NCBI GenBank assembly: GCA_031275345.1 | Contig: JAISOW010000002.1 | Span: 64,517-128,516 of the forward strand | Reading direction: 5' to 3' | Length of the DNA stretch: 64,000 nucleotides | DNA from: Puniceicoccales bacterium | GTDB taxonomy: Bacteria; Verrucomicrobiota; Verrucomicrobiia; Opitutales; JAIRLM01 | Shown: one piece after another, positions 21,658 to 54,568 of the stretch | Numbering within the stretch: position 1 is the first letter of the stretch | Layout: every line of letters begins with the position of its first letter | The notes under the pieces: model-generated | What the model was told of the DNA's origin: nothing | The model's input: only the letters and a program-made list of their open reading frames with translations | The model's database searches: none | Made by a program: the position numbers and the translations under genes

Positions 21658-21660
21658 GGC

Positions 21661-22449: not shown

Positions 22450-22453
22450 GGCC

Positions 22454-22723
22454 CTAGGTGATCATTGTCGGAAAGTAGGAAAAGACGTGGCGGGTAAAGC
22501 CCATGATTTCCGACCCCATCCAGCGGGCCGTGACCAGCAGAACAATGACAACGGATATTAGCTTTACCGTAAAACCCAGCGTCTGTTCCTGAATTTGTGT
22601 CAATGCCTGCAAAAGGCTGACCAACAGGCCTACCACCGTTGCCACAAGGATGGATGGCAGGGATAGGATTAGGATCATGACCATGGCCTTCACGCTGAAA
22701 TCCAGAACAATGCTATTCTCCAT
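22454..22723 (-). CDS. sctS: type III secretion export-gate protein SctS (YscS/FliQ family)
   Basis: 89-aa two-TM hairpin protein (LVSLLQALTQIQEQTLGFTVKL) immediately upstream of sctT. Confidence 0.85.
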   Translation of the reverse strand: MENSIVLDFSVKAMVMILILSLPSILVATVVGLLVSLLQALTQIQEQTLGFTVKLISVVIVLLVTARWMGSEIMGFTRHVFSYFPTMIT

Positions 22724-25792: not shown

Positions 25793-26108
25793 ATCCGGTT
25801 CCTCTTTTTCGCACAGCCGTGGCCTTGTACGGCGCATACTGGAACGGTCCTGCCCGGTCGGTGAGCTGGCCGAAGCGTCCCTTATCTGTGCCCTACACAG
25901 TCTGTTGGAGCAGGCGCTGCGGTGGCAGGATGGGGTTGACCTGGGCGAGCTCAATGCGGCCGCAGCAATTTTGCAAAAACTCATCGCCAGCTGGCAGCAA
26001 GTGGATGGCCAGCGGTTGGCACAGATGCCTCGGCAGGAAAAAAATGGCGGCTGTGGCATCGGGGAAGAGGACCTGCGGCACCTTGAGGAGCGGTTGCGAC
26101 TGCTATGA
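25785..26108 (+). CDS. hypothetical protein in the small-terminase position
   Basis: GTG 25785 follows GGAGGAGG. 107 aa. The stop overlaps the TerL ATG (ATGA). Assignment is by position only. Confidence 0.4.
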   Translation: MTRSGSSFSHSRGLVRRILERSCPVGELAEASLICALHSLLEQALRWQDGVDLGELNAAAAILQKLIASWQQVDGQRLAQMPRQEKNGGCGIGEEDLRHLEERLRLL

Positions 26109-27499: not shown

Positions 27500-28767
27500 C
27501 GACAGCTGTCCACAACCCCCATCAAACCATGAAAACCAGGTCGGAATTAGGCCAACTGTGCGGCGTTCCATCCTGGCGCAGAGGTTTTCATCCCATCCGC
27601 TTCCTAACGGCGGAAAGCCTTACCCGCCACCTGGATGCCTTTCATGGAGGAAATTTGCGGGGAGCGGCCATCCTATGGGATGCCATCGAACGGCGGGATG
27701 ACGTGTTGCAAGGTGTTGCGGCCAAGCGGAAAAAGGCCGTGGCACGGCTGCCATGGGACATCCTTGCCATCGACGGAAGCGGCGAGGCGCTGGTGCAGCA
27801 GGAAGCTCTGCGGTTTTTTTACAATTCACTCAGCTGTGTCCATGCGGCCGACGGCAATGAGCGGGGCGGATTCAGCCTGCTGGTCAAACAGATGATGGAC
27901 GCCGTTGGCAAGAAGTACGCGGTCCATGAAATTGTCTACCACGAGCACGGCGAATGCCAGCTGGAAGGTGCAAATGGTCCACTTCTATCGGCAGAATTTC
28001 GCTTCGTGCCACTGGAATTTTTTGAAAATCGGAGCGGACGGCTGCGCTTTGCACCGAATGACCTGGGCGATGACGGCATGGACCTCGCGCCGGGGGCATG
28101 GATGATTTCCGTGGGCGATGGCCTCATGGAGGCTTGTTCCATTGCCTACCTTTTCAAGCATTTGCCGCTGCGGGACTGGCTGGTGTACTGCGAACGCAAC
28201 GGCATGCCGGGCGTGAAGGGCGTGACGGATGCCATGCCTGGAACGCCGCACTGGGAAATGGCCAAGCGTGCGGTTGAGGCATTTGGTGCCGAGTTCAATG
28301 CCCTGCTATCCACGGGCAGTGACCTGCAGGCCATCGACCTAAGTTCGCGGGGGGAACTGCCCTATCCTGCCCTGGTGGAGCGCATGGACCGGGCAATGGC
28401 GGCCCTCTGGTGCGGAGCAGACCTGGGAACGCTTTCCCGGGCAAGCGGAGTTGGCGCATCGCTGCAAGCGGGGGAACGGCTGCTGCTGGAGGTCGACGAT
28501 GCGGCCAACGTTTCCGAAACCCTCAACGCACAGGTGGATTGCCACGTGCTGGGCCATCTCTTCCCCGGTGCTCCGGTGCGCGCCTACGTAAAGCTGCGCC
28601 CGTCCCAGCAGCGGGACATGCTACAGGAGCTGGAAATCTACGAACGGCTGGTACGGCTTGGCCTGCCAATTGCCCAAAAAGATCTGCGGGAACGGTTCGG
28701 CATCGGTTTGCCGATGGATGGTGAAGCAACCCTGTCCGCCACGCGGCAACAAATCACCCAAAACTAG
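27496..28767 (+). CDS. phage portal protein (Mu gp29/DUF935-like, from memory)
   Basis: 423 aa, directly after TerL. ATG 27496 overlaps the TerL stop. Size and position fit a portal; the family assignment is unverified. Confidence 0.7.
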   Translation: MTTAVHNPHQTMKTRSELGQLCGVPSWRRGFHPIRFLTAESLTRHLDAFHGGNLRGAAILWDAIERRDDVLQGVAAKRKKAVARLPWDILAIDGSGEALVQQEALRFFYNSLSCVHAADGNERGGFSLLVKQMMDAVGKKYAVHEIVYHEHGECQLEGANGPLLSAEFRFVPLEFFENRSGRLRFAPNDLGDDGMDLAPGAWMISVGDGLMEACSIAYLFKHLPLRDWLVYCERNGMPGVKGVTDAMPGTPHWEMAKRAVEAFGAEFNALLSTGSDLQAIDLSSRGELPYPALVERMDRAMAALWCGADLGTLSRASGVGASLQAGERLLLEVDDAANVSETLNAQVDCHVLGHLFPGAPVRAYVKLRPSQQRDMLQELEIYERLVRLGLPIAQKDLRERFGIGLPMDGEATLSATRQQITQN

Positions 28768-28781
28768 GGAAAAGGACGGCC

Positions 28782-29648
28782 ATGGCAAAGGATTCTACGG
28801 CGGCGGTGGCACCCGGCGAAGCTGCGGATGCCAATGAAGAATGCGGCGGTACCTGGAGCAAGCTGGTTTCCTATGGGGAATATCCCCACAGGCTTGGGCT
28901 GCAGGTGGTGACAAAGGAGGCGGCGCAGCGGATGGTGGACGAATTTTGTTCTCTTTCCCAGCGCCTTGCCAACCGTTTTCGCGGTGTTCCTGTCTACGTC
29001 GGCCATCCGGACGACGGCCAATTTTTAGGACTCGTTGGCCACGGCGATCCGCGGCCCTACGGCTGGGTTAGACAATTGGAGGCACGGGAAGATGGGCTAT
29101 GGGTTCGCATTTGCTGGTCCGTTGCCGGCCGGGAACTGCTGGACAAGGCTCGCTACAAATTTCTTTCCCCGCGCTGGGAAATGCATCCCATCGGCGGCGA
29201 ACGGTTTTTGCCAAAATTTTTGGTGTCCATTGGGCTGACCAACCACCCCAACATTGCCGGCGATGCGATTGTCCAAAAAATTGCTCCGATTGCCGCGCCG
29301 CTGCTGCATTGGCAACCGGTTGGCGGTGCACGGCCAGCGGAACGGCCGGCCTGGGGCTGTGCCCCGGGAATCCAGTTCCAGCCAATCGCCGCCAATGCCA
29401 GCGGCCTGGCATCTGCCGTCCTCCACCGCAATGCCCATTCCACGCAGCTGACCCGTGGTGCACGGCTTGGGACGGGAGGCAAAAAAGAGGCGGAACGGCG
29501 GCTATTGTCGCTCGTGAGCGAGCGCATGGTAAGTGCCAACGAAACTTTCACCGCCGCGTGGAAGAACGTGAAATTGGCACATCCAGCCCTGTTTTCCACC
29601 CAAACTTTCTCCAAAACAGCGGAGAATGGACCGTCGCCATGGCGGTGA
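28782..29648 (+). CDS. Mu gpI-like prohead protease/scaffold
   Basis: GEYPHRLG...VPVYVGHPDD...PYGWVRQLEAREDGLWVRICWSVAGRELLDKARYKFLSPRW matches my recollection of the Mu-like prophage I protein pattern (GW..L..r.DGL...W......YryLSP). Confidence 0.75.
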   Translation: MAKDSTAAVAPGEAADANEECGGTWSKLVSYGEYPHRLGLQVVTKEAAQRMVDEFCSLSQRLANRFRGVPVYVGHPDDGQFLGLVGHGDPRPYGWVRQLEAREDGLWVRICWSVAGRELLDKARYKFLSPRWEMHPIGGERFLPKFLVSIGLTNHPNIAGDAIVQKIAPIAAPLLHWQPVGGARPAERPAWGCAPGIQFQPIAANASGLASAVLHRNAHSTQLTRGARLGTGGKKEAERRLLSLVSERMVSANETFTAAWKNVKLAHPALFSTQTFSKTAENGPSPWR

Positions 29649-32489: not shown

Positions 32490-34685
32490 ATGGCCCACCT
32501 ACAAACCTTGCGCATCGCCTGTGACGGTGCCAATTTTGACGCACCCAGCACACTGCCGGACGGACGTAAAATTAGTTTTTGGCGTGGCTGCGACCTGCGC
32601 CTGGAACTGGCGTTGTTTCAGCGCGGCCAGCTGGAAGATCTGACCAACCTGGCCACGCTGGTCGTCGAGGTGCGGGCCATGGGCCCAAACGATGCCCCGC
32701 CGAATGGGTCCGAACCGCCACTGATGCACCGCGAACTGGCGGTCGAGGAGCTGGATGTTGGGGCAACGCTGGAAGACTGGCGCCAGGGGACCGGGCAGCA
32801 GGCCGTTGTTCACTTTTCCCACGGCGAAGCGGCATTGCCGGCCGGCGATGCCTGGCTTGGAGTCTGGGCCAGGACGGTGGATGAACACATCATTCCCTTC
32901 GGTGCAGGGCGCATCACTGTCCGAGAATTAGCCCGCGGCGGTGAGGAATTTTTTCCTCCCGAGGAAGTGCCGGGCGATGGGACGCAAAAATTTTTGCAGA
33001 AAAATGCCAACCTGGCGGACCTGGCATCGACGTCCACTGCACGGGAAAATCTTGGCCTTGGAGCGGCGGCCACCTGCGGCGTTTTGGACGAAGAAAATTT
33101 GGCAACAAATTCTTCGATGGATCTGCCAACCCAGCACAGCGTAAAATCCTATGCCGATGGCATTGGCACGGCCACCCTTTCCTCCGCCGAGACCTATGCG
33201 GATGGCATTGGCACAACCACCCTTGCTTCCGCAAAAACCTACGCCGATGGAGTCGGCACAGCTACCCTTTCCTCAGCCGAGACCTATGCGGACGGGGTCG
33301 GAGCCGCCGTCCAAAGCTATGCGGATGAGCTGCAGACGGCCGTCCAATCCTACGCCGACGGGGTTGGAGCCGCCGCTGAGACCTATGCGGATGGCATTGG
33401 CACAACCTCCCTTGCTTCCGCAAAAACCTACGCCGATGGAGTCGGCACAGCTACCCTTTCCTCAGCCGAGACCTATGCCGACGGGGTCGGTACGACAACC
33501 CTTGCATCGGCAAATGCCTACGCCGACGAGGTTGGTGCCGCCGCCGAGACCTATGCCGACGGGGTCGGTACGACAACCCTTGCATCGGCAAATGCCTACG
33601 CCGACGAGGTTGGTGCCACAGTCCAGGACTATGTGGATGAACAGATGGAGATTGTCCAGGGCGGTGCTGGTTCGTTTTCTCCCAATCTATGGCCTTCCAA
33701 CGGCGGATTTAGCTACAGTTCCTACGCACAGCAGCCCTATTTTGCCGGCAACGGCTATACCTGCGGCGTGGATGGATGGTACCTCCACCAGCAGCAATCG
33801 GGCGGTGATGCCACAAATTTGACCTACTTTTCTCCGGTCCGCATGTTTTCCGGCAATGTGTCTGCAAATGTCAATGACCTCTGCTTCAACCGTGCCAATG
33901 GAAGTGTTGCAACGGCGCAGTACACCATGTGCCGACCATTTACCATGCTGGAAACCGCCCCACTGCGTGGCAAAAGTGTAACCATCAGCTTTGGCCTAAA
34001 ATTTGGCCAAAATTTTCCCCAAAATGAGGAAGGCCACGGCATTGAAGTTCATCTATACGGTTCAACCTATGCCACCGAACAACAAAATGTTGCCTACAAC
34101 AATGGCAGGTATGGCCAGTCAAATACGGAACTGGCCGCGCCACCTCCCATACTTTCCTGCACAACGGATGCGTTTACCCGCGTTTCTTTTTCAGCAAATA
34201 TTCCCGAAAACATTGCGCAACTTTCTCTGGCATTCTGGCATACGCCGGTGCGGACCGGGACTGATGTGGGAGATGACTACAAATTTTACCTGCGACTGCC
34301 GGCCATTCGCGTTGGCGACGATGCATCGGAGCCGCGCATTCCGAATCCGGCCGTGGATCATTGGGCTGTCTGCAGCAGATTTCAGCGCGTTCCGGTGGCA
34401 TATTCTGGCGCAACAACGTCCGGCGCATCCATCGTCCAAAAAATTTTCTTTCCATTTCCCATGAACAAGATGACCTCCTCCGTTCTGCGCTGCATCCGTG
34501 CCTACGACATCGACACGCCCGTAAATTTTCCAGCCGCAGCAACGGGCGACATTTCGCAAATTAGTGAAAATGGTTTTACCGTCACGAGGACTGCGAATAA
34601 AACCGCATCCACATCGTCATTTTATGCATCGTACAACTTTGGCATCCCGCTTTGGACGTACAGCAACCCAATCGGTACTTTTTAG
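32490..34685 (+). CDS. phage tail fibre / receptor-binding protein
   Basis: NANLADLASTSTARENLGLGAAATCGV is the motif common in tail fibres. It is followed by more than 10 tandem YADG(I/V)G repeats and a beta-rich C-terminal domain. Confidence 0.8.
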   Translation: MAHLQTLRIACDGANFDAPSTLPDGRKISFWRGCDLRLELALFQRGQLEDLTNLATLVVEVRAMGPNDAPPNGSEPPLMHRELAVEELDVGATLEDWRQGTGQQAVVHFSHGEAALPAGDAWLGVWARTVDEHIIPFGAGRITVRELARGGEEFFPPEEVPGDGTQKFLQKNANLADLASTSTARENLGLGAAATCGVLDEENLATNSSMDLPTQHSVKSYADGIGTATLSSAETYADGIGTTTLASAKTYADGVGTATLSSAETYADGVGAAVQSYADELQTAVQSYADGVGAAAETYADGIGTTSLASAKTYADGVGTATLSSAETYADGVGTTTLASANAYADEVGAAAETYADGVGTTTLASANAYADEVGATVQDYVDEQMEIVQGGAGSFSPNLWPSNGGFSYSSYAQQPYFAGNGYTCGVDGWYLHQQQSGGDATNLTYFSPVRMFSGNVSANVNDLCFNRANGSVATAQYTMCRPFTMLETAPLRGKSVTISFGLKFGQNFPQNEEGHGIEVHLYGSTYATEQQNVAYNNGRYGQSNTELAAPPPILSCTTDAFTRVSFSANIPENIAQLSLAFWHTPVRTGTDVGDDYKFYLRLPAIRVGDDASEPRIPNPAVDHWAVCSRFQRVPVAYSGATTSGASIVQKIFFPFPMNKMTSSVLRCIRAYDIDTPVNFPAAATGDISQISENGFTVTRTANKTASTSSFYASYNFGIPLWTYSNPIGTF
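33148..33645 (+). repeat. coding tandem repeats (YADGxG units) inside the tail-fibre gene
   Basis: Units such as SAETYADGIGTTTLASAKTYADGVGTATLS recur. A block of about 108 nt (33193-33300) recurs near-perfectly at 33379-33490, and a block of about 72 nt (33468-33540) recurs at 33546-33617. Confidence 0.9.
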
Positions 34686-34694
34686 CAAAACGCC

Positions 34695-36443
34695 ATGGAA
34701 TGGACAATTTCCGCCCAGCAGGGCACGGCCTATCCACTGGCCCACTACGGCATCACCCATCTGCGCCGCGTGCGCAATGGCCAGGGCCGGGACACGGTCA
34801 CCTTTCGCCGCTCAGCCGCATGGAACGAACCATGCCCGTTTTCTCCACCTTGCCAAATTCGTATTTTACGGGACAACGTCCCGTGGTTCTGCGGCACACT
34901 GATCCATGCGCCGGTCGATGGAACAGCGGCCGCCCTGTCCAGCAGCTATCGCGTTGCCGGCCCATGGTGGCATCTAGAATCCATCGTCTACCAGCAGGGA
35001 TGGCGCACGGCGGCCAATCCCGACGAATCGGATAGTGAGCTGGTCACCGTACGCCGAAGCCATCTCATCCTTGGCCAGGGCATTGCCGGCCAACCCATTT
35101 CGCTGCGTTCCCAGTTGGTTGACATTTTCGACTATGCCATCGCTGCCGGAGCGCCGTTCACCTACCAAATGGATGCAAATGAACTCGGCCAGACATTTCC
35201 CTTCGACGAATGCAAGGACTTGAGCTGTGCCGAGGCGATTCGGCGGGTTTTGCAGTGGGTTCCCGATGCTCGGCTGTGGTTTGACCACGCGGCCGATCCG
35301 CCCATTCTCCACTGCACCAGACGCAGCTCCGCCGAGGCAAAAACATTTGCCCTGGCAGAACTAAAATCTTTTTCACTGTCCGCACGCCATGATTTGCAGC
35401 TGCAGGGCGTTGTGCTAAAATACGAACGGCTGCACCACGGCGACAATCTCATTTGGCGAACGGTTGAAGAGGATCGGTTTCCAGAAAATTGCGGCGAGAC
35501 CCAACCGCGGGTCCTCGTGCTGACCATTGAATTGGCCGGCGTGCGCAGCCACTATCTTACGCAAAAAATTCAAACCAGAACCATCGCGGTGGACAGCGCC
35601 ATCTGGTGGCAGCAGCATCTTCCGGCACTGGCAGCGATTCCAACGGCATCTTTGCAAATTTTAGGCCATTCCCGCAGCTCAGAACTCCCAAGGGAATTGG
35701 TGGAAGGATCCATTGCCGAATGGATGGAAGTTGAGACGGAATTGGACATGGCCCGCGCCACCATTGCCTATGCCACCGATGCGGCGGATATTCTATGCCA
35801 GGATGTGGCGGTTCCTCTGCGGGCAACGAATGCCGTAACCCGAACCTACGCAATGCTAGAATCTTTTACCGGCGAGGAGGCAACGCCGCAGGGATTGGCC
35901 CAGTTGCTCCATGAAAATTTTGCCACTGTCCCATACGCCGGCACAATCAGCTGGGAGGATGGAGATGTGCGGCAAATTTCACTCGGCTGGCAGATCAACC
36001 TATCCGGTGGCCGGCCGGAATGGGAAACCATGGCGGCGGATATTCAAGAATGCGTCGAGGACGTGGGAAGTGGCCAGGTAACGCTGCGCCTTGGGCCACC
36101 CGGTCAGCCGGGCCTGCGCAGACTCATCCAGCTGGCGCGGGTCAACCGCAACCGAGGAACTCCCAGAGAGAGCTACGTGCGGCCAAGTGGCCTGGCAAGC
36201 GGAGAAAGTTTGGACCTTCCGGAATTGGGACCCATGGGCCATGGCCAGCTCGGCGTTGCCGAATTTGGTAAAATTCTGCTCACCAATGGCACGGATCCGT
36301 CCATTGCCATCGCACTGGATGCCAATGCAATCCAGCGGGAAGGCCTTGTATTGCAGCCACGGGAGGAGGATGTTGTGGAAAATGGAGTTCTAAAAAAACG
36401 GCTCTCCATCGCATCCCAGCCATACCAATCGGGGGAATCGTGA
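34695..36443 (+). CDS. phage tail/baseplate-like structural protein, unassigned
   Basis: 582-aa ORF directly after the fibre gene, in the same operon-like packing. No motif recognised. Confidence 0.55.
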   Translation: MEWTISAQQGTAYPLAHYGITHLRRVRNGQGRDTVTFRRSAAWNEPCPFSPPCQIRILRDNVPWFCGTLIHAPVDGTAAALSSSYRVAGPWWHLESIVYQQGWRTAANPDESDSELVTVRRSHLILGQGIAGQPISLRSQLVDIFDYAIAAGAPFTYQMDANELGQTFPFDECKDLSCAEAIRRVLQWVPDARLWFDHAADPPILHCTRRSSAEAKTFALAELKSFSLSARHDLQLQGVVLKYERLHHGDNLIWRTVEEDRFPENCGETQPRVLVLTIELAGVRSHYLTQKIQTRTIAVDSAIWWQQHLPALAAIPTASLQILGHSRSSELPRELVEGSIAEWMEVETELDMARATIAYATDAADILCQDVAVPLRATNAVTRTYAMLESFTGEEATPQGLAQLLHENFATVPYAGTISWEDGDVRQISLGWQINLSGGRPEWETMAADIQECVEDVGSGQVTLRLGPPGQPGLRRLIQLARVNRNRGTPRESYVRPSGLASGESLDLPELGPMGHGQLGVAEFGKILLTNGTDPSIAIALDANAIQREGLVLQPREEDVVENGVLKKRLSIASQPYQSGES

Positions 36444-45600: not shown

Positions 45601-47094
45601 GTGGCCGGTCCGACCATTGACGATGTGCTGTCGCTGTGCCGCCGGCGCGGCTTTTTCTTTCCATCGGCGGAAATCTACGGCTCCATCGCCGGTTTCTACG
45701 ACCATGGCCCTCTCGGCTGTGAGCTGCGGCGCAACATTCGGGATGCCTGGTGGCGGGACATGGTCCAAGGTCGACCGGATGTGGTTGGCATGGACTGCAG
45801 CATTGTTACCCATCCCCAGGTATGGCACGCATCGGGCCACGCAACCAATTTTTCCGACCCAATGGTGGACTGCCGTGAATCCAAAATGCGCTACCGGGCG
45901 GACCAGCTATTTTTTTGCCCTGTGCGGTCCCAGGGCCGCACCATTGCCATGGTTTCGGTGTTGGAAGGCCCTGCCATGGAAGAAGAAGCCAGGGACAAGG
46001 CGCGCGCCATTTGCGGCAGGATGGGACTGGTTGCGGATGGTGAGCCGCTGCGGCTGCGACCAATCTTAGATGCTACGGCCGAGGAATTGGAAAAAATTCC
46101 TTCACCGGCCACCGGCACTCCCGGTGCACTGACAGCACCACGAGACTTTCATCTCATGCTGGAGACGCGGGTTGGTGCGGTGGCGGACGCAGCATCGTTG
46201 ACCTATCTGCGGCCGGAAACTGCCCAGGGAATTTTTGTAAACTTTGGCCACGTGGTGGACACGGCGCGGCAGAAAATTCCATTTGGCATTGCCCAAATTG
46301 GCCGATCCTTTCGCAATGAAATTACGCCCCGCAATTCCCTATTCCGTTCCAGGGAATTTGAGCAGATGGAATTGGAATATTTCATCGCACCGGATGCGGA
46401 CTGGCGGGCCATCCACGGCCAATGGGTGCGGGACCGTCTGGCTTGGTACTCCTCCATCGGCGTGGGGCAAGAATGGCTTAGCTTGGAAGAGCATGCGCCG
46501 GAAAAACTGGCCCACTATGCCCTGGCCTGCACGGATATTGCATTTCGCTATCCATTCGGCATTCAGGAAATTGAGGGCATTGCCGTCCGGGGAAATTTTG
46601 ATCTCGCACAGCACCAAAATTTTAGCGGAAAAAGTTTGGAATATTTCGACGGCGAACGGCGCTATCTTCCATTGGCCATTGAGCCATCCGCCGGCCTGGA
46701 CCGCATTTTTTTGGCACTGCTCTGCTCCGCCTATGCCGAGGATGAGCTGGGCGGCGGGCGAAGGACGGTGCTACGGCTGCATCCACGCCTGGCGCCGATC
46801 AAAGCCGGCGTATTTCCACTCGTAAAAAATCAACCAAAGCTTGTCATGCTGGCGGAATCCATTGCAAAGCGGCTGAGCCGCCACTGGAACGTCGCACTGG
46901 ACAGTTCCGGAGCCATTGGTCGCCGCTACCGGCGCATGGACGAGGTGGGCACGCCATTTGCCATTACCGTCGATTTTCAATCCATCGACGACGGAACGGT
47001 CACACTCAGAGAACGGGACAGTGCTGAGCAGGTACGTATTGCGGTGGAAGAACTTGTGCCATGTTTGAGAGAAAGCATCAACGGCCCGGATTGA
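45601..47094 (+). CDS. glyQS: glycine--tRNA ligase (homodimeric GlyQS type)
   Basis: LCRRRGFFFPSAEIYGSIAGFYDHGPLGCELRRNIRDAWW, the class II motifs (FRNEITPRNSLFRSREFEQMELEYF; EPSAGLDRIFLALL), and a C-terminal anticodon-binding domain. Confidence 0.93.
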   Translation: MAGPTIDDVLSLCRRRGFFFPSAEIYGSIAGFYDHGPLGCELRRNIRDAWWRDMVQGRPDVVGMDCSIVTHPQVWHASGHATNFSDPMVDCRESKMRYRADQLFFCPVRSQGRTIAMVSVLEGPAMEEEARDKARAICGRMGLVADGEPLRLRPILDATAEELEKIPSPATGTPGALTAPRDFHLMLETRVGAVADAASLTYLRPETAQGIFVNFGHVVDTARQKIPFGIAQIGRSFRNEITPRNSLFRSREFEQMELEYFIAPDADWRAIHGQWVRDRLAWYSSIGVGQEWLSLEEHAPEKLAHYALACTDIAFRYPFGIQEIEGIAVRGNFDLAQHQNFSGKSLEYFDGERRYLPLAIEPSAGLDRIFLALLCSAYAEDELGGGRRTVLRLHPRLAPIKAGVFPLVKNQPKLVMLAESIAKRLSRHWNVALDSSGAIGRRYRRMDEVGTPFAITVDFQSIDDGTVTLRERDSAEQVRIAVEELVPCLRESINGPD

Positions 47095-47298
47095 ACAAAT
47101 TGCTCCAGCCATGAGCCATGGCGTGCGTTTGTTGTTCGACGTTTTTTCGCCGGTGTTTTTCCCCGTTGCTGCACCGCGGCAAAAATGTGCGGTCCGCATC
47201 CATCGCCGTGCAAAACTTCGAAATAGCAGTTTAAAATTCGACCTACATTACCTTTTTACTTGCCCTTTGCCGATGCTCGGCGTAGACGTCGTGGCAGT

Positions 47299-50200
47299 AT
47301 GCCAAGCCCCATAACAAACACCGCGCAACCCTTTTTGCTGCAGAACGCTGCACCCATTCGACAGAGCACTGACATCACGGAGCTTACGGCGGCTGCTTGC
47401 GCACGATGCGACCTGATTACGCACCTTCGCAGACTCGTGTTCTATAATTATTGCAGGAATTTTATCAGTGCATTTTTTTGCTATTTGTTTGCTTATTGGA
47501 CAGGCCTTGGCCGGACCGTGACATTTTATACGGGGCTCATAGAGCGACTAATTGCATGCAGCGCATCGTTAAATGCCAATGCCAACAACAGCAATTTACC
47601 TTCGACGGAAGCGTCTTCAAATCCAGCCGCCACCAGCGCAGAAGAGCAAAATACATTGAACGGTCAACAGGCGGCAGAGGGTCAGTCGATTGTCTCATGG
47701 ATTCCTGCAGGGCAGAACCACAACGTCGATACAGAGTTGGATAATTCAAAGGAAGATGATTTCGAGGAAGATGATTTCGAGGAAGTTAATTTTGAGGAAG
47801 AGCCGGCAAGCGGTGATCAACAGAATGGTGCAGAGACAAGTCAACCTCTTTCTCCACCCCCCCCCCTTTTGAGTGAAGTCGACGAAAACTTGATGCGGTG
47901 GAAGGCATTAAATCATTCCCTAGGCGATTTTGTGCGTATCTATTATGTCAAAATGACGCCCGCCGAAGTTGATAAAGATCTGTATAAAAAATACATGATC
48001 GAATCAATGGTGAAGCTAAGTCAAGACATAGAACTATCCCCATATACATTGCCCGATGTGCACCGCACGAATATAGAAAATTTTTTAAAAAAATGCATGG
48101 AGGCATTCAAATTGATGGAGTCTGGTTTGAAGAAGTTGGGGGCAAAACCCGATCCAAACTCGAAGGAAATCAAGCTGGTCAATGACCTACAGGCCGTCAT
48201 TGCCACCCTTTCCGAACATCTTACCACCTGCGAAGATGCGGCGGCGACGGGCCTGTGCAGGTGTGGCGCGCAGCTGAAAATATTGCTCCTCAGGATTCAA
48301 GGAAGCGACACGCCAATGAAAGCGCGAATTGCGGCGCTCTGCGAATGCATCATTCCGGATGCCGTGGGCCATGCAATTGCAAGAATCCTTCCCAAAAAAA
48401 AGGGCACGACAGCACCGGCGGAAATTTTAGAGTTGGAATCTCTCATTGGCAATGTGTTGGCGAATTTGCAACTTCCCTGGAAAACGGAGTTATCTCCCAT
48501 GCGCTATTGCGGGTGTGCCATTGGCGCCGCCAATTTGCTCACCTTGAGATGTCCATCCTTGTTGGAGTCGCAGCGGGGTGGAGAATTCACGGGAAAAGAT
48601 GGCGTTGGTGTCACATTCGAAATGCATCTGATGCAAATACTTACGGCATTGGGTGCCACAAACATAGCAGAGGATGCCATGTGCGCCATTCGTGCTATCA
48701 TCCGCCTGGTTTTGCAAGAGATTACGTCGACGAAACTTCCGGCGCTTTTGACCAGTTTTAGTGGCATCGAGGAAATTTTATGTGAAGATGGCAACGATGC
48801 ATGGGAAAATTTAAAATTTAGCAATGATCTATTGCACACCCTTGTGGGAGTTTTGGTAGCATACCCGGCAAGCGAAACTGGCAAAACCTATCCGTTGCCG
48901 GCAGGCACAGCGGCAGATTCTCTCATCAAGCAATTTCAGGGTCAAAGCCTTAGGCAAGTGCGCGACACCCTTGAGAAGCAAGACTCTAGTAATCCCATCA
49001 TGTATGCACTTTCATCACCGGAAGCCGTACGAATATTCAACCAATACTGCGTGCAAATTACACTGAATACGGCGCCGGAGTTCAAAGAGATCATCGAAAA
49101 TATTCCCGTGCCGTTTGAATGGCAAGATACTATTTTAAAACCCGAAGTAGTAGCTCCTGCGGCTACAACCCATCCATTTGGAAATCATTTCCATGATACA
49201 CTTACCATTCCCCATTTTAATGACCTTACCACCGGAACGGTGGAAGTTGTTGTAGATATTCTAAGCTCCAGCCCGCCGCCGCAATGGCTCAACTGGCAGA
49301 CAATTCAGCAGCAACGCCTGTTGAATAAAAAACAAGACTTTTTGGCCCTGCGCGATACCGCTGAGCGGCTTACCTGGCTGGAAGAAGAAAGCAAGTGTTC
49401 TTACATCAGTATTTCACTTTTAATACTGGCCGACACCGATGTTATCGAATCCTTTTCGGATGATTTCCGCGAGTTACGTACGCTCATAAAGTACTGCGTG
49501 GCTGGCTTGGGAAATGTGCTAGCGGATGATAAGAAATTAGTACAGGCGACCAGAGACTTGGTCGAAGCTTTTCAGGCTGTGACACAGTTTCGACTGAGAA
49601 TCCATTCCAATCGTGACATCTGTCCCAGGATACACATGCCAGTAGAGAGGACTGCTGAGACGAATGAGGATCTCGCCCGTGCCAGGAACCAGATAATTCT
49701 CAGAAATTCCTACAATAGGGAATTTTGCACCCTATGCTTAGAGTTTTACAAGCATCTTGTTAGAAATGAAAAAACAAATGTGGCCAATGCGCTATTCCGC
49801 ACCCCAAATGTGTCAGCAGCTTCTTATTTTCTCGAATGGGACACGTTTCCGAAAGATCCCTTTAGAGGGAAAATAATGAATGAGTCGTTATTCGGTCGTT
49901 GCATTCAAATTATCCCAAATGTATTTTGGAAAAAAGTTGTGAACAGTCTGCAAGACGACGAATTTTTGTCCTTTTTGGGGGATAGTGTCGCCTCCGACTG
50001 TTTTTCCCCCCTTAAAACGCCGTACCTAGCCTTTCTTTTATTCCATATTGCTTCCGCGGAAAGATTTCCCGCAGAGTATCACAGGCAGCTTTGCAACCCA
50101 TTCGGAAAATCGTCGTTTCAAATGGTTGGCAAGCCTCCTGCGCGTGACAAGTTGGCGGGCGCACAAGCGGAGGAACAGTTGTTTGAACGCCTAGAAAGAT

Positions 50201-50745
50201 TGGTGAACGGGAACAATGACGCAGTAGCACAATTGCTAAAGAAATTACTGTTCGTTCATCCTGTTACAGGAGAATCAGAGAATGAGGCATATCCAATGGG
50301 ATGTAACACTTGTTGGATTCAGCATGAAATTATCGCAGGAAATATTTTTGGTAACAGAGACAAGAATACGCTACTGCCGAAATTTTTCAGAAAAATACAT
50401 TTTTCCATTACGCCATACGCCTATGAACATCTACTTCCACTCATGATAAACTGCAATCTCCTTCGCTCAGACGGGAATGGCAACTACATTGATGGCACCA
50501 ATCGAGTATGGCGCTTCGTGGCCATACCCGCCATGGTGTCATTGTCTACTGGACAATACATTCACATTGACGCCGGTCCTGCCATTATGGGTAAGAAAAA
50601 TGCCACTCAATGCCGGATAGAGAGACGCATAGCACTCTGTCACACCGAACACGGATCCTTGCCGATTGACGAGCCCGTAACTTTTCTTGATGCAAATGGA
50701 AAAAAAATTTCTCTATCGCCACCGGCGCATGGGGCGCATGGATGA
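47299..50745 (+). CDS. large orphan protein, tandem paralog A (1148 aa from ATG 47299)
   Basis: Single long ORF with an N-terminal hydrophobic patch (FISAFFCYLFAYWTGLG), an acidic DDFEE repeat and PPPP. The remainder appears helix-rich by eye. No family recognised. The C-terminal 9 residues are read from a glyQS-derived fragment. Confidence 0.8.
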   Translation: MPSPITNTAQPFLLQNAAPIRQSTDITELTAAACARCDLITHLRRLVFYNYCRNFISAFFCYLFAYWTGLGRTVTFYTGLIERLIACSASLNANANNSNLPSTEASSNPAATSAEEQNTLNGQQAAEGQSIVSWIPAGQNHNVDTELDNSKEDDFEEDDFEEVNFEEEPASGDQQNGAETSQPLSPPPPLLSEVDENLMRWKALNHSLGDFVRIYYVKMTPAEVDKDLYKKYMIESMVKLSQDIELSPYTLPDVHRTNIENFLKKCMEAFKLMESGLKKLGAKPDPNSKEIKLVNDLQAVIATLSEHLTTCEDAAATGLCRCGAQLKILLLRIQGSDTPMKARIAALCECIIPDAVGHAIARILPKKKGTTAPAEILELESLIGNVLANLQLPWKTELSPMRYCGCAIGAANLLTLRCPSLLESQRGGEFTGKDGVGVTFEMHLMQILTALGATNIAEDAMCAIRAIIRLVLQEITSTKLPALLTSFSGIEEILCEDGNDAWENLKFSNDLLHTLVGVLVAYPASETGKTYPLPAGTAADSLIKQFQGQSLRQVRDTLEKQDSSNPIMYALSSPEAVRIFNQYCVQITLNTAPEFKEIIENIPVPFEWQDTILKPEVVAPAATTHPFGNHFHDTLTIPHFNDLTTGTVEVVVDILSSSPPPQWLNWQTIQQQRLLNKKQDFLALRDTAERLTWLEEESKCSYISISLLILADTDVIESFSDDFRELRTLIKYCVAGLGNVLADDKKLVQATRDLVEAFQAVTQFRLRIHSNRDICPRIHMPVERTAETNEDLARARNQIILRNSYNREFCTLCLEFYKHLVRNEKTNVANALFRTPNVSAASYFLEWDTFPKDPFRGKIMNESLFGRCIQIIPNVFWKKVVNSLQDDEFLSFLGDSVASDCFSPLKTPYLAFLLFHIASAERFPAEYHRQLCNPFGKSSFQMVGKPPARDKLAGAQAEEQLFERLERLVNGNNDAVAQLLKKLLFVHPVTGESENEAYPMGCNTCWIQHEIIAGNIFGNRDKNTLLPKFFRKIHFSITPYAYEHLLPLMINCNLLRSDGNGNYIDGTNRVWRFVAIPAMVSLSTGQYIHIDAGPAIMGKKNATQCRIERRIALCHTEHGSLPIDEPVTFLDANGKKISLSPPAHGAHG

Positions 50746-50836
50746 GGTGGGCACGCCATTTGCCATTACCGTCGATCGACCTACATTACTTTTTTACTTG
50801 CCCTTTGCCGATGCTCGGCGTAGACGTCGTGGCAGT
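50717..50836 (+). repeat. duplication scar: copy of glyQS 3' coding fragment plus the paralog-A upstream region
   Basis: 50717..50776 matches glyQS 46921..46975 (ggcgcatgga(c/t)gaggtgggcacgccatttgccattaccgtcgat, with an extra ggcgcatgg). 50777..50836 matches 47239..47298 (cgacctacatta...gccgatgctcggcgtagacgtcgtggcagt). Confidence 0.92.
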
Positions 50837-53800
50837 ATGTCAAGCTCCATAACAAACACCACGCAACCCTTTTTGCAGCAGAACGCTGCACCTATTCGTC
50901 AGAACACTGACATCACGGGGCTTACGGCGGCTGCTTGCGCACGATGCGACCTGATTACGCACCTTCGCAGACTCGTGTTCTATAATTATTGCAGAAATCT
51001 TATCAGTGCATTTGTTTACTATTTGTTTGCTTATTGGACAGGCCTTGGCCGGACCGAGACATTTTATACGGGGCTCGTGGCGCAGCTAAGTGCGCACAGC
51101 ACAGCGACAAATGCCAATACTAGCAACAGCGATTCACCTTCGACGGAAGCGCATTCAAGTCCAGCCGCATTGAACGGTCAACAGGCGGCAGAGGTTCAGT
51201 CGATTGTCGAGTGGATTCCTGCAGAGCAGGACGACAGTGAGTCAGGGGAAGGTCCGACAGGCGATGGTCAACCGAATAGAGCAGAGGTAGCCCCACTTCT
51301 TTTGCCACCCCCCCCTTTGAGTGAAGTCGACGAAAACCTGATTCGGTGGAAGGAATTAAATGACGATCTATGCAAGCTTATAAAACTCTATTATGTCGAT
51401 ATTACACCCGGCGGAGTTGATAAAGATCTGTATAAAAAATACATGTACGATTTAATGATAGATCTAACAAAAAACATAGAAGTATCCAAATTTGCATTGC
51501 CCAATGTGCACCGCAAGAATATAGAAAATTTTTTAAAAAAATGCATGGAGGCATTCAAATTGATGGTGCCTGGTTTGAAGAAGTTGGGAACAGAACCCGA
51601 TCCAGACTCGAAGGAAATCAAGCTGGTCAATGACCTACAGGCCATCATTGCCACCCTCTCCGCACATCTTACCTCCTGCGAAGATGCGGCGGCGACGGGC
51701 CTGCGCATGTGTGGCGCGCAGCTGAAAATATTTTTCCTCAGGATTCAAGGAAGCGACACGCCAATGAAAGCGCGAATTACGGCGCTCTGCGAATGCATCA
51801 TTCCGGATGCCGTGGGCCATGCAATTGCAAGAATCCTTTCCCAAAAAAAGGGCACGACAGCACCGGCGGAAATTTTAGAGTTGGAATCTCTCATTATCAA
51901 TGTGTTGGCGAATTTGCAACTTCCCTGGAAAACGGAGTTATCTCCCATGCGCTATTGCGGGTGTGCCATTGACGCCGCCAATTTGCTCACCTCCAGATGT
52001 CCATTCTTGTTGGAGTCGCAGCGGGGTGGAGAATTCACGGGAAAAGATGGCGTTGGTGTCACATTCGAAATGCATCTGATGCAAATACTTACGGCATTGG
52101 GTGCCACAAACATACCACAGGATGCCATGTGCGCCATTCGTGCTATCATCCGCCTGGTTTTGCAAGAGATTACGCCGACGAAACTTTCGGCGCTTTTGAC
52201 CAGTTTTAGTGGCATCGAGGAAATTTTATGTGAAGGTGGCAACGATGCATGGGAAAATTTAAAATTTAGCAATGATCTATTGCACACCCTTGTGGGAGTT
52301 TTGGTAGCATACCCGGCAAGCGAAACTGGCAAAACCTGGCCGTTGCCGGCAGGCACAACGGCAAATTCTCTCATCAATCAATTTCAGGGTCAAAGTCTTA
52401 GGCAAGTGCGCGACACTCTTGAGACGCAAGACTCTGGTAATCCCATCATGTATGCACTTGCATCACCGGAAGCCGTACGAATATTCAACCAATACTGCGT
52501 GCAAATAACACTGGATGCGGCGCCGGAGTTCAAAAAGATCATCGAAAATATTCCCGTGCCGTTTAAATGGCAAAATGCTATTTTAAAACCCGAAGTAGTA
52601 GCTCCTGCGGCTACAACCCATCAATTTGGAAATCATTTTCATTATGGACCTTCCATTCCCTATTTTAATGAGTTTACCACCGGAACGGTGGAAGTTGTTG
52701 TAGCGCTCCTAGCACACAACCATCCGGCGGAATCTAACCTGAGGGAAATTCGGGAGCAACGCCTTTTGATTAAAAAACAAGAATTTTTGAACCCGCCCAG
52801 AACTGAGGGACAGCCCAGTCTTGAGGCGCGGATTGCCTACCTGGAAAAAGAATCCAAGTGTTGTCTCATCGCCATTGGAGGTTTACTAATGTCCGACAGC
52901 GACATTTTGGAATCCTTTCCGAATGATTTCCGCGCGTCACATGTGATCATGCGGTACTGCACGGCTTGCTGGGGAAATGTGCTCAACAATGAGGCTAACA
53001 CGCCCGGGCCCCATACGCCCAGCAATGAGACCAAATTAGTACGGGCGACCAGAGACTTGTTCGATGCCTTTCAGACTATAGCACAATTTCAACTGGAAAT
53101 CCATTCCAATCGTGACATCTGTCCCGAGAGGAGCATCCGATGCCATTCGGAAGTGGAGACGGATGAGTCTCGCGCCCGTACCAGGACCCAGATAATCCTC
53201 AGACACAGAGCCAATGTGACATTTTGCACCCTATGCTTAGAGTTTTACAGTCATCTTGTTAGAAATGGAAAAACAAATGTGGCCAATGCGCTATTCCGCA
53301 CCCCAAATATACCAGCAATTTTTTATTCTCTCCCAATTCCCGAGTATTCATTCTTTTCGTCGGGACTTTTTCATCTTAAAGAAATGAAAATGGCGCTATT
53401 CGGTCGTTGCATTCAAATTATCCCAAATGTATTTTGGGAAAAAATTGTGGACAGTCTGAAAGACGACGAATTTTTGTCCCTTTTGGGGGATAGCGTCGAC
53501 TGCGACGATTTGTCCGTGAAAACGCCGTATCTAGCCTTTCTTTTATTCCATATTGCCTCCGAGGAAAAGTTTCCCATGGAGTATAAAGGGCTGCTTTGCT
53601 ACCCATTCGGAAAATCGTCGTTTCAAATGGCTGGCACGGCTCCTGCGCGTGACAAGTTGGCGGGTGCACAAGTGGAGGAACAGTTGTTTAAACGCCTAGA
53701 AAGATTGACGAACAAGAACAATAACGCAGTAGCACAATTGCTAAAGAAATTACTGTGCGTTGTTTCTGTTATTGGAGGACACATAAACGAAAGAGATCTA

Positions 53801-54220
53801 ATGGATTGTGACACTTGTTGGGTTGGACATACAATTGACAGTGAGCATATTCTCTTGCAGAATACGCATACGATATTTTCGAAATATTGCAGAGAAATAC
53901 ATTTTTCCATTACGCCATACGCCTACAAACACCTACTTCCACTCATGATAAAGTACAAACTCCTTCGCCCAGACGGGAATGGCAACTACATTGATGACAC
54001 CAATCGAGTATGGCGCTTCGTGGCCATACCCGCCATGGTGTCATTGTCTACCGGACATTACATTCACATTGAGGCCGGTCCTGCCATTATGGATGAGAAT
54101 GATGCCAGTCGCTGCTGGATAGAGAGACGCATAGCACTCTGTCACACCGAACACGGATCCTTGCCGACTGACGAGCCCGTAACTTTTCTTGATGCAAATG
54201 GAAGCAAAATTTCTCTCTAA
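50837..54220 (+). CDS. large orphan protein, tandem paralog B (1127 aa from ATG 50837)
   Basis: Collinear with paralog A from MSSSITNTTQPFLQQNAAPIRQ to ...PVTFLDANGSKISL. The first 50 codons of track ORF 50687 are duplication scar, not a real N-terminus. Confidence 0.8.
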   Translation: MSSSITNTTQPFLQQNAAPIRQNTDITGLTAAACARCDLITHLRRLVFYNYCRNLISAFVYYLFAYWTGLGRTETFYTGLVAQLSAHSTATNANTSNSDSPSTEAHSSPAALNGQQAAEVQSIVEWIPAEQDDSESGEGPTGDGQPNRAEVAPLLLPPPPLSEVDENLIRWKELNDDLCKLIKLYYVDITPGGVDKDLYKKYMYDLMIDLTKNIEVSKFALPNVHRKNIENFLKKCMEAFKLMVPGLKKLGTEPDPDSKEIKLVNDLQAIIATLSAHLTSCEDAAATGLRMCGAQLKIFFLRIQGSDTPMKARITALCECIIPDAVGHAIARILSQKKGTTAPAEILELESLIINVLANLQLPWKTELSPMRYCGCAIDAANLLTSRCPFLLESQRGGEFTGKDGVGVTFEMHLMQILTALGATNIPQDAMCAIRAIIRLVLQEITPTKLSALLTSFSGIEEILCEGGNDAWENLKFSNDLLHTLVGVLVAYPASETGKTWPLPAGTTANSLINQFQGQSLRQVRDTLETQDSGNPIMYALASPEAVRIFNQYCVQITLDAAPEFKKIIENIPVPFKWQNAILKPEVVAPAATTHQFGNHFHYGPSIPYFNEFTTGTVEVVVALLAHNHPAESNLREIREQRLLIKKQEFLNPPRTEGQPSLEARIAYLEKESKCCLIAIGGLLMSDSDILESFPNDFRASHVIMRYCTACWGNVLNNEANTPGPHTPSNETKLVRATRDLFDAFQTIAQFQLEIHSNRDICPERSIRCHSEVETDESRARTRTQIILRHRANVTFCTLCLEFYSHLVRNGKTNVANALFRTPNIPAIFYSLPIPEYSFFSSGLFHLKEMKMALFGRCIQIIPNVFWEKIVDSLKDDEFLSLLGDSVDCDDLSVKTPYLAFLLFHIASEEKFPMEYKGLLCYPFGKSSFQMAGTAPARDKLAGAQVEEQLFKRLERLTNKNNNAVAQLLKKLLCVVSVIGGHINERDLMDCDTCWVGHTIDSEHILLQNTHTIFSKYCREIHFSITPYAYKHLLPLMIKYKLLRPDGNGNYIDDTNRVWRFVAIPAMVSLSTGHYIHIEAGPAIMDENDASRCWIERRIALCHTEHGSLPTDEPVTFLDANGSKISL

Positions 54221-54568
54221 CCCTTCCATTAGCATCTTCTTTCCCAGCACAATTTGCACCACGCGGGTGGGGCCGTTGCCGATGTATTCGTTGGCCGCAG
54301 TTCCTTTCTGAGACGGCCAGCGGAGACATCGACCCTGTTTTTGAACAACGCAAAATTGGCGAAAACTTTGCCCTCTTTTTGGCATGGAAGGCTGCCTCAA
54401 CGGCCATTGCTGACCAAATGCCGGGCATTGGCGATGGGGCAGATTCTAGCCGTTGAAGACTGCGATTGTTTAGATTTCATCCGTGAATGGCGAGAAACGT
54501 CCCTCGCCGCCGACTTCTCGGTGGTCTACCGTTGCCATTTTCTACGTTTTTTTTAAACTGACCGGACA

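What the first reader, a model, noticed from the sequence alone, without database searches (positions are those of the whole stretch)
46921..50836. Tandem duplication junction fossilised: a glyQS 3' fragment and the upstream spacer are re-copied between the two giant paralogs
The sequence encoding RRMDEVGTPFAITVD in glyQS (46921-46975) reappears at 50717-50776. It is joined directly to a copy of 47239-47298, the region just upstream of paralog A including its ATG context. Homology between the 3' ends of the paralogs stops at …gcaaatgga(a/g)(a/c)aaaatttctct (50714 versus 54217). One duplication unit therefore ran from inside glyQS to three codons before the paralog stop. Three consequences can be read directly. 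(i) Paralog A acquired a new tail, SPPAHGAHG, read out of frame from the glyQS fragment. (ii) About 263 bp (46976-47238) were later deleted in the second copy, apparently between short tcga(t/c) homologies. (iii) The scar contains an extra ggcgcatgg slip. This is direct evidence for the mechanism and polarity of the gene amplification.
Basis: seen in the sequence. Interest (0 to 1): 0.7.

Follow-up and report, generated by a model that had tools for sequence, protein, structure and literature searches.

The report
Preserved tandem gene duplication scar
Two neighbouring 1,100-residue genes of unknown function in an uncultured Puniceicoccales bacterium arose by a head-to-tail duplication, and the join still carries a 55-base piece of the upstream glycyl-tRNA synthetase gene; this is a clean natural example of a well-known process, and the more unusual point is that the two copies are diverging under positive selection.

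Summary
Bases 46931-46974 inside glyQS recur at 50733-50776 with one mismatch. That copy abuts a copy of the spacer and 5' end of paralog A (47238-47630 = 50776-51168). Homology between the paralog 3' ends stops at 50714/54216. This is the single novel join of a 3.8-kb tandem duplication. The outer boundaries carry no flanking repeat and no mobile element, so the join was illegitimate.

Four details need correcting:
- The right breakpoint lies at the stop codon, not three codons before it.
- The segment missing from copy 2 is 264 bp, not 263.
- Both TCGA motifs survive, so this was not a classical microhomology deletion.
- It cannot be shown that the deletion came later than the duplication.

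New points:
- The only substitution in the 44-nt fragment (C>T at 50743) creates paralog A's stop codon.
- All three scar indels (-3, +9, -264) are multiples of three. The glyQS frame therefore runs into paralog B, and GenBank annotates it that way.
- The copies differ at 26% of residues but at few silent sites (dN/dS about 1.4-2.3).
- Silent divergence is mosaic, and the scar matches the young class.
- The family has only three other, distant members, and the genome encodes a type III secretion system.

The mechanism is ordinary. Interest is modest.

The parts
45601..47094 (+). Intact glyQS (dimeric-type glycine--tRNA ligase, 497 aa); the parent of the fragment
   Evidence: Pfam tRNA-synt_2b and HGTP_anticodon. 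It is 100% identical to the GenBank MAG protein MDR2030129.1. Relatives are 491-498 aa long.
46920..46974 (+). Source segment inside glyQS (codons RRYRRMDEVGTPFAITVD) that is re-copied in the scar; the left breakpoint of the duplicated unit is at about 46920
46975..47238 (+). 264 bp present only in copy 1: the last 120 nt of glyQS plus 144 nt of intergenic DNA
   Evidence: The offsets 3802 and 3538 differ by 264. No significant RNA fold and no terminator-like site.
47238..47298 (+). Spacer just upstream of paralog A (copy 1)
   Evidence: 61 nt with 1 mismatch to 50776-50836.
47299..50745 (+). Paralog A (1148 aa from the conserved ATG); its last 9 residues, SPPAHGAHG, are read from the scar out of the glyQS frame
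   Evidence: Translation. GenBank LBP65_01525 is annotated from GTG 47518. No Pfam, NCBIfam or PADLOC match.
50714..50716 (+). Novel join point: ...TCTCT-A-TCGCC...; the end of the ancestral gene (at its stop codon) is joined to glyQS position about 46920, with at most 1 nt of exact microhomology
   Evidence: No flanking repeat at the outer boundaries.
50716..50776 (+). glyQS-derived scar. It carries a 3-nt deletion after 50720, a 9-nt tandem duplication of GGCGCATGG (50724-50732 and 50733-50741), and C>T at 50743, which creates paralog A's TGA stop (50743-50745)
50776..50836 (+). Spacer copy 2, fused to the scar at GTCGA|TCGACC. A weak promoter-like match (TTGCCA N16 TACATT, 50760-50787) spans the fusion
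50837..54220 (+). Paralog B (1127 aa from the conserved ATG). It keeps the ancestral C-terminus and stop codon. GenBank annotates it from ATG 50696, so the deposited protein includes the GlyRS-derived peptide
   Evidence: Family homologues end at the same place as B.
54221..54568 (+). Ancestral 3' flank, present once, with two terminator-like hairpins (54358 and 54519)
   Evidence: It matches only itself. Terminator scan.

Best explanation
A 3.8-kb segment was duplicated head to tail by a non-homologous join. The left end of the segment lay in glyQS codon 441 (about 46920). The right end lay at the stop codon of a single ancestral gene of unknown function.

Shown by the sequence:
- glyQS stayed intact.
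- The left copy (A) lost its stop codon and reads into the glyQS fragment out of frame.
- The right copy (B) kept the ancestral stop and 3' flank, but is now preceded by a 55-nt glyQS relic fused to the 61-nt native spacer.
- There is no flanking repeat, and the join has at most 1 nt of exact overlap.

Inferred:
- The join arose by illegitimate recombination, most likely a replication template switch.
- The -3, +9 and -264 changes arose either in that same error-prone event or soon after it.
- A later C>T change trimmed A's junk tail from 35 to 9 residues.
- The duplication is fairly young, at about 2% neutral divergence. Since then the two proteins have been driven apart by positive selection. 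Some blocks show about 10% silent divergence, and the reason for that is unresolved.
For: - Two direct copies with one novel join.
- The right flank 54231-54568 and glyQS upstream of 46920 each occur once.
- Alignments of outer flanks against unit ends score no better than shuffled sequence: 18-19, against shuffle maxima of 23-25.
- No inverted repeats or mobile-element domains at the boundaries.
- The closest outgroup glyQS genes have GAC where the scar has GAT, so the C>T change arose in the scar.
- Only 6 of 132 possible substitutions in the 44-nt fragment would create a stop in A's frame.
- The copies differ at 458 of 3318 aligned nucleotides, so this is not a duplicated assembly.
- Family homologues end where B ends, so A's tail is the derived state.
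- Scar plus spacer show 2 differences in 105 nt (0.019). This equals the low class of silent divergence (about 0.017) and not the high class (about 0.107).
- dN/dS is 1.44 by NG86 (bootstrap interval 1.18-1.78) and 2.26 by YN00 and ML. Differences by codon position are 181/157/120.
- dN/dS stays at 2.0-3.2 in gap-free blocks.
- Small indels beside amplification junctions have a precedent in E. coli (PMC1428787).
Against: - No read-level or long-read check of the MAG contig was possible.
- No close relative exists to show the pre-duplication state. The best glyQS relative is 79% identical, and its contig ends 378 bp after the gene.
- The join lacks the 4-15 bp microhomology typical of the E. 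coli template-switch junctions.
- Silent divergence is heterogeneous (Fisher test 4e-5, with blocks chosen after inspection). An older duplication with later gene conversion therefore cannot be excluded.
- The scar could be conserved by selection rather than by youth.
Confidence: 0.85

Rival explanations
1. Two-step history. A simple duplication carried the full glyQS 3' end (175 nt) and the whole 204-nt spacer. A 264-bp deletion, a 3-bp deletion and a 9-bp slip followed as separate later events.
For: Each change is a common mutation type on its own. The copies have had time to accumulate many in-frame indels elsewhere. The deletion junction has a 1-nt overlap, which is typical of illegitimate deletion.
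Against: Three indels fall within 60 nt, next to only 2 substitutions in 105 nt and no indel in the adjacent 393 nt. Both TCGA motifs are retained, so the proposed microhomology did not mediate the loss. This history differs from the one-step version only in timing, and the present sequence cannot separate them.
Confidence: 0.4
2. The duplication is old (about 10% or more silent divergence). The low-divergence blocks, including the 5' region, were homogenised later by gene conversion between the copies, so the scar only looks young.
For: Silent divergence is bimodal: 4 of 344 against 32 of 447 identical-residue codons. Identical runs of 109 and 101 nt compare with a permuted mean of 44 and a maximum of 99.
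Against: The 55-nt scar has no homologous partner on its left and is separated from the spacer homology by a 264-nt gap. Conversion from glyQS should either not reach it or should erase its indels. The scar nevertheless has only 1 substitution.
Confidence: 0.25
3. The scar has been co-opted and is kept by selection. It might supply a -35 element for a hybrid promoter, or in-frame start codons (ATG 50729/50738, overlapping A's stop as ATGGATGA) for coupled translation, or an N-terminal extension of paralog B.
For: - All three indels are multiples of 3 (about 1 in 27 by chance), so the glyQS frame is continuous with B's ATG.
- GenBank and JGI gene calls start B upstream of the scar.
- A promoter-like site, TTGCCA N16 TACATT, spans the fusion and has no counterpart in copy 1.
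- The scar and spacer are less diverged than silent sites of the adjacent 60 codons (2 of 105, where 0.075 per site would be expected; p about 0.013).
Against: - The promoter match is only 9 of 12, and the scan found 26 such sites where shuffles gave about 11.
- The homologue P0003 has an N-terminus of the same length as A and B counted from the conserved ATG.
- Copy A functions without any such extension.
- Shine-Dalgarno motifs are weak throughout this genome, so start sites cannot be ranked.
Confidence: 0.12
4. Assembly artefact: a chimeric or duplicated join produced by the metagenome assembler.
For: The window comes from a MAG contig (218,902 bp). No independent assembly of this locus was found.
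Against: - The copies differ at 13.8% of aligned nucleotides, and the longest shared run is 109 nt.
- The scar differs from glyQS by a substitution and two indels, and its spacer differs from copy 1. It is therefore its own sequence in the reads and not a mis-join at a shared k-mer.
- The left side of the join shares no k-mer with either parent.
Confidence: 0.04

Closest known systems
RecA-independent tandem amplification junctions in E. coli (stress-induced lac amplification; Slack et al. 2006, PMC1428787)
   Same: Direct head-to-tail repeats of kilobase size with one novel junction and no long homology. Some junctions are accompanied by a 3-bp deletion or a 1-bp insertion next to the join.
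   Different: Those junctions carry 4-15 bp of G-rich microhomology, whereas this one has at most 1 nt of exact overlap (an imperfect T..CC). Those are laboratory events lost without selection. This one is fixed in a natural genome and has since diverged by about 14%.
Complex junctions with short templated insertions from replication-based mechanisms (serial template switching such as FoSTeS/MMBIR; own knowledge; yeast segmental duplications in PMC2518615, listed but not read)
   Same: A short stretch (55 nt) copied from 264 bp upstream of the final re-entry point sits between the two main breakpoints, with slippage errors inside it.
   Different: Here the same structure can equally be read as a simple duplication followed by a deletion. 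No experimental system or polymerase dependence is known for this organism.
Duplications that give the second copy a new upstream context (patAB duplication in S. pneumoniae; Baylay et al. 2015, PMC4432121)
   Same: The second copy sits behind foreign upstream sequence at the join, and read-through from it can drive expression. Here B lies 91 nt after A's stop with no terminator-like site between them.
   Different: Expression was measured there. Nothing is measured here.
Reference-genome classification of bacterial tandem duplications by flanking-repeat and microhomology signatures (Tandem tool, bioRxiv 10.64898/2026.05.22.727201)
   Same: The same logic was applied here. I tested the R-D-R-D-R model at the outer boundaries and measured the overlap at the inner junction.
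   Different: That survey reports mostly sub-kilobase duplications (mean 538 bp in SBW25). This unit is 3.8 kb and contains a whole gene plus part of its neighbour.

Membership tests
Tandem (head-to-tail) segmental duplication | Two adjacent copies in the same orientation | tested here: met
   47238-50714 and 50776-54216 are collinear, with 83-95% nucleotide identity by segment.
Tandem (head-to-tail) segmental duplication | One novel join that links the end of the unit to its start, with outer flanks present once | tested here: met
   The join is at 50714-50716. The 3' flank 54231-54568 and glyQS upstream of 46920 match only themselves.
Tandem (head-to-tail) segmental duplication | Copy number and join confirmed in reads or long reads | not testable with these tools
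   No read data were available. Exact-protein and DNA look-ups found no second assembly of the locus.
Homologous-recombination duplication (R-D-R-D-R) | A repeat of about 35 bp or more at 92% identity or better at the outer boundary and at the unit ends | tested here: not met
   Best local alignments are 12-19 columns with scores of 18-19, the same as shuffled controls.
Microhomology-mediated template-switch duplication (E. coli type) | 4-15 bp of microhomology at the novel junction | tested here: not met
   The exact overlap is at most 1 nt (T). An imperfect T..CC match covers 3 of 6 positions. This lowers the claim of membership in that class. It does not lower the claim of a non-homologous, replication-type origin.
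Microhomology-mediated deletion (for the 264-bp loss) | Only one copy of the short repeat remains at the deletion junction | tested here: not met
   The scar reads GTCGATCGACC, so both TCGA motifs are retained.
Mobile-element-mediated duplication | An IS element, transposase or terminal inverted repeats at the boundaries | tested here: not met
   No inverted repeats at the boundaries. No transposase domain in the flanking ORFs.
Assembly duplication artefact | Copies that are identical or nearly identical | tested here: not met
   458 differences in 3318 aligned nucleotides, and 74% amino-acid identity.
Paralogs under positive (diversifying) selection | dN/dS above 1 with both reading frames intact | tested here: met
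   NG86 gives 1.44 (bootstrap 1.18-1.78) and ML gives 2.26. Gap-free blocks show 72 amino-acid-changing against 8 purely synonymous codons. Both ORFs are uninterrupted. This is a pairwise test only.
Type III secretion effector | A T3SS in the genome, plus secretion of the protein | tested here: inconclusive
   SctU (TIGR01404, 404 bits against a cut-off of 358) and SctT (TIGR01401, 191 bits against 163) are encoded in the window. Secretion cannot be tested. No sequence or fold similarity to any known effector was found.

The most novel reading that the evidence does not exclude
The duplication scar has been put to use. The 55-nt glyQS relic, kept in frame by three indels that are all multiples of three, would now provide paralog B with either a hybrid promoter (-35 from glyQS coding sequence, -10 from the native spacer) or an overlapping stop-start site (ATGGATGA) and a GlyRS-derived N-terminal extension. 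A piece of a housekeeping gene would thus have become regulatory or coding sequence of a fast-evolving gene of unknown function that may interact with a host.
Probability: 0.12. Interest if true: 0.5.

Novelty: new member of a known kind. Interest (0 to 1): 0.33.

Why it matters
Tandem duplications in bacteria are usually seen in the laboratory and are lost quickly, so their joins are rarely preserved in natural genomes. This join has survived and can be read base by base. It shows a non-homologous origin, a breakpoint exactly at a stop codon, a new C-terminal tail later trimmed by a nonsense mutation, and a neighbouring-gene relic that current gene callers mistake for coding sequence. It also dates the birth of a gene pair that is diverging under positive selection in an uncultured Puniceicoccales lineage carrying a type III secretion system. 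That is a useful small case study of how lineage-specific, possibly host-facing gene families expand. It does not reveal a new mechanism.

Tried and rejected
- **Source contig.** Exact-protein look-ups for A, B, glyQS and the GenBank and JGI versions all failed to return the source contig or an independent assembly.
- **Scans for the paralog.** A genome-collection scan and a metagenome scan with the A/B alignment found nothing. An exact 23-nt spacer pattern in metagenomes also found nothing.
- **Relatives via glyQS.** A glyQS scan of species representatives gave only 41-53% relatives. The protein search reached 79% and 64-67% relatives, but their glyQS neighbourhoods are not syntenic and hold no family member.
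- **Third tandem copy.** The downstream 843-aa ORF and the rest of the window show no similarity to A or B.
- **Structure.** AlphaFold gave pLDDT 30.7 with 2 sequences and 47.7 with 5. Foldseek against the PDB gave only generic helical proteins at E above 0.29. The fold is therefore unknown.
- **Family libraries.** Pfam, NCBIfam, PADLOC and a PDB sequence search were all empty.
- **RNA elements.** RNA folding of both spacers gave z-scores of -0.33 and +0.22. Rfam found only a tRNA elsewhere in the window, so an RNA element in the scar is rejected.
- **Global alignment.** MAFFT misplaced the fragment across the 264-nt gap, so I relied on the local alignments.
- **Start codon of B.** Shine-Dalgarno inspection could not settle it.
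Full report
**Observation.** The window has glyQS at 45601-47094. Two long ORFs follow on the same strand. Paralog A runs from ATG 47299 to the stop at 50745 (1148 aa). Paralog B runs from ATG 50837 to the stop at 54220 (1127 aa).

Local alignment shows six collinear segments between 46.5-50.9 kb and 50.6-54.7 kb. These include 46931-46974 = 50733-50776 (44 nt, 1 mismatch, E 1e-16) and 47238-47630 = 50776-51168. The repeat finder gives the same pairs. The match is far beyond chance.

**Anatomy of the join.**
- Paralog A reads ...AAA ATT TCT CTA TCG CCA CCG GCG CAT GGG GCG CAT GGA TGA.
- Paralog B reads ...AAA ATT TCT CTC TAA.
- Homology between the 3' ends therefore ends at TCTCT (50714/54216), and B's stop codon follows at once. 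The right breakpoint is at the stop codon, possibly after its first T. It is not three codons upstream.
- From 50716 the sequence is glyQS: TCGCC, then a 3-nt gap (GCT, 46925-46927), then ACCGGCGCATGG, then a second tandem GGCGCATGG (50733-50741), then 35 more nucleotides to GTCGAT (50776).
- The spacer follows: CGACCTACATTAC...
- The segment present only in copy 1 is 264 nt (46975-47238).
- The TCGA motif survives twice (TCGATCGA), so the overlap at that junction is a single T.

**Type of event.**
- Flanks outside the two copies occur once.
- I tested the homologous-recombination model, in which a repeat sits at the outer boundary and at the unit ends. I aligned 300 nt on each side. The best local scores (18-19) equal those of shuffled sequence.
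- There are no inverted repeats or transposase domains at the boundaries.
- The join was therefore illegitimate.
- In E. coli, amplification junctions of this type carry 4-15 bp of microhomology and are attributed to template switching. Two of those isolates also had a 3-bp deletion or a 1-bp insertion beside the junction (PMC1428787).
- Here the microhomology is at most 1 nt, so I do not file this under that class. A replication-type, non-homologous origin remains the best mechanistic guess.
- The sequence does not say whether the 55-nt glyQS piece is what remains of a larger duplicated flank after a 264-bp deletion, or a short templated insertion made in the same event. The clustering of the join, -3, +9 and -264 within about 60 nt argues mildly for a single event. 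That stretch carries only 2 substitutions in 105 nt, and the next 393 nt carry no indel.

**Consequences for the genes.**
- Paralog A gained the tail SPPAHGAHG.
- The only substitution in the 44-nt fragment, C>T at 50743, turns CGA into the TGA that ends A. Without it the tail would run 26 residues further, to a TAG.
- The nearest outgroup glyQS genes (79% and 66% protein identity) have GAC at this codon, as the window's glyQS does. The change therefore happened in the scar.
- Only 6 of 132 possible substitutions in the fragment would make a stop. This suggests selection to trim the tail, but it is not proof.
- The three indels are all multiples of three. The glyQS reading frame of the scar is therefore continuous with B's ATG, with in-frame ATGs at 50696, 50729 and 50738.
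- The GenBank protein for B (LBP65_01530, 1174 aa) starts at 50696 and contains ...RRMGRMDEVGTPFAITVD..., whereas A (LBP65_01525) is annotated from GTG 47518.
- The remote homologue P0003 has an N-terminus of the same length as A and B counted from the conserved ATG. I therefore regard 47299 and 50837 as the likely starts and the extension as an annotation artefact. This is not proven.

**Age and selection.**
- A and B share 74% amino-acid identity.
- Pairwise dN/dS is 1.44 by NG86 (bootstrap 1.18-1.78) and 2.26 by YN00 and ML. Third codon positions are the least changed (181/157/120).
- Among 791 codon pairs that encode the same degenerate residue, only 36 differ.
- In gap-free, well-aligned blocks there are 72 amino-acid-changing codons against 8 purely synonymous ones.
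- Both frames are uninterrupted over 3.4 kb.
- This pattern indicates positive, diversifying selection on functional genes and not decay.
- Silent divergence is mosaic: about 0.017 per site in the central and C-terminal blocks and about 0.107 elsewhere (Fisher 4e-5, blocks chosen after inspection). Identical runs of 109 and 101 nt compare with a permuted mean of 44.
- Scar plus spacer (2 of 105 = 0.019) match the low class.
- The scar is a poor substrate for gene conversion. I therefore favour a young duplication with unexplained extra divergence in some blocks. An older duplication with later conversion remains possible.

**What the genes are.**
- No Pfam, NCBIfam, PADLOC or PDB sequence match was found.
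- A search of 5.8 billion proteins found only the two paralogs.
- An exhaustive profile search of 1.84 billion representatives added three distant relatives (E 1e-29 to 1e-32). One is a third copy on another contig of the same MAG. One is a partial gene in another Puniceicoccales MAG. One is a fragment from a JGI metagenome. All sit at unrelated loci.
- Structure prediction failed, with pLDDT 30.7 and 47.7. The models were mostly helical and the fold search was uninformative.
- The proteins have an N-terminal hydrophobic stretch and then a variable acidic, Ser/Pro-rich linker.
- The paralogs have 46-48% GC against 55-60% for housekeeping genes.
- The window encodes injectisome-type SctU and SctT, and a relative carries a T3SS cluster next to its glyQS.
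- A host-facing or secreted role is a reasonable guess, but it is untested.

**Artefact check.**
- The copies differ at 13.8% of aligned sites.
- The scar differs from glyQS by one substitution and two indels.
- The left side of the join shares no k-mer with either parent.
- An assembler-made duplication or mis-join is therefore unlikely.
- No read-level confirmation was possible, and no independent assembly of the locus was found.

**Verdict.**
- The tandem-duplication reading is right in outline and needs corrections in detail.
- The phenomenon is a new example of a known kind.
- The features worth remembering are the breakpoint at the stop codon, the tail-trimming nonsense mutation, the in-frame relic that misleads gene callers, and the strong positive selection on a lineage-restricted gene pair.

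Noticed in passing
window 57229-63999 (+), runs off the window end: A giant open frame of at least 2257 codons with no Pfam or PADLOC match. The ORF listing hides it because it runs off the end. Together with A, B and the 843-aa ORF (54569-57100), it forms a run of four large genes of unknown function on one strand, with lower GC (46-53%) than the housekeeping genes (55-60%).
   Followed up: partly
window 20545-22723 (-): Non-flagellar type III secretion export-apparatus genes: SctU (TIGR01404, above cut-off), SctT (TIGR01401, above cut-off) and an 89-aa SctS-like membrane ORF at 22454-22723. This points to a host-associated lifestyle.
   Followed up: partly
window 26105-29648 (+): Mu-like phage genes: large terminase, Mu-type portal and Mu-like prophage protease. 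Pfam-less ORFs of 731 and 582 aa lie further downstream (32490-36443). This is probably a prophage or its remnant.
   Followed up: no
window 4991-6964 (-) and 9564-10718 (+): Two Rho transcription-termination-factor paralogs lie within 5 kb of each other. The mechanical ORF of the first overlaps tRNA-Thr(CGT) at 6860-6934, so its real start must be further in.
   Followed up: no
window 47750-47801: A 15-nt tandem repeat (3.5 copies, encoding EDDFE-like acidic units) is present only in paralog A's linker. It accounts for part of the largest in-frame length difference between A and B.
   Followed up: no
window 54865-54947 and 55072-55154: Two 83-nt copies at 99% identity, 207 nt apart, plus a third degenerate copy at 55147-55229. 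They lie inside the proline-rich N-terminal part of the 843-aa ORF downstream of paralog B.
   Followed up: no
window 47518 and 50696 (GenBank LBP65_01525 / LBP65_01530): The deposited start codons of the two paralogs are inconsistent. A is cut short by 73 residues. B is extended by 47 residues, across A's 3' end and the glyQS relic, so the database protein carries a GlyRS peptide.
   Followed up: yes
L082 6286-9681; L081 10001-11847; L083 3-1523: The only other family members sit at unrelated loci. One is a third, 24%-identical copy in the same MAG, between an ABC permease gene and rpoD. One is a partial copy after rpoN in another Puniceicoccales MAG. One is a C-terminal fragment before a HIT-family gene in a JGI metagenome.
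   Followed up: partly
L087 1211-6532 and 18594-21479: A related Puniceicoccales contig has a T3SS cluster (SctN ATPase, YscO, SepQ-like and FliP/SctR-like genes) about 3.5-9 kb upstream of its glyQS (10001-11479), on the opposite strand. It also has a 3264-aa gene with no domain match about 7 kb downstream.
   Followed up: no
window 48558-48666 and 48789-48889 (paralog A) against the matching parts of B: Identical runs of 109 and 101 nt lie within a central block that has almost no silent differences but still carries amino-acid changes. This could be a recent gene-conversion tract or a block younger than the rest of the gene.
   Followed up: partly
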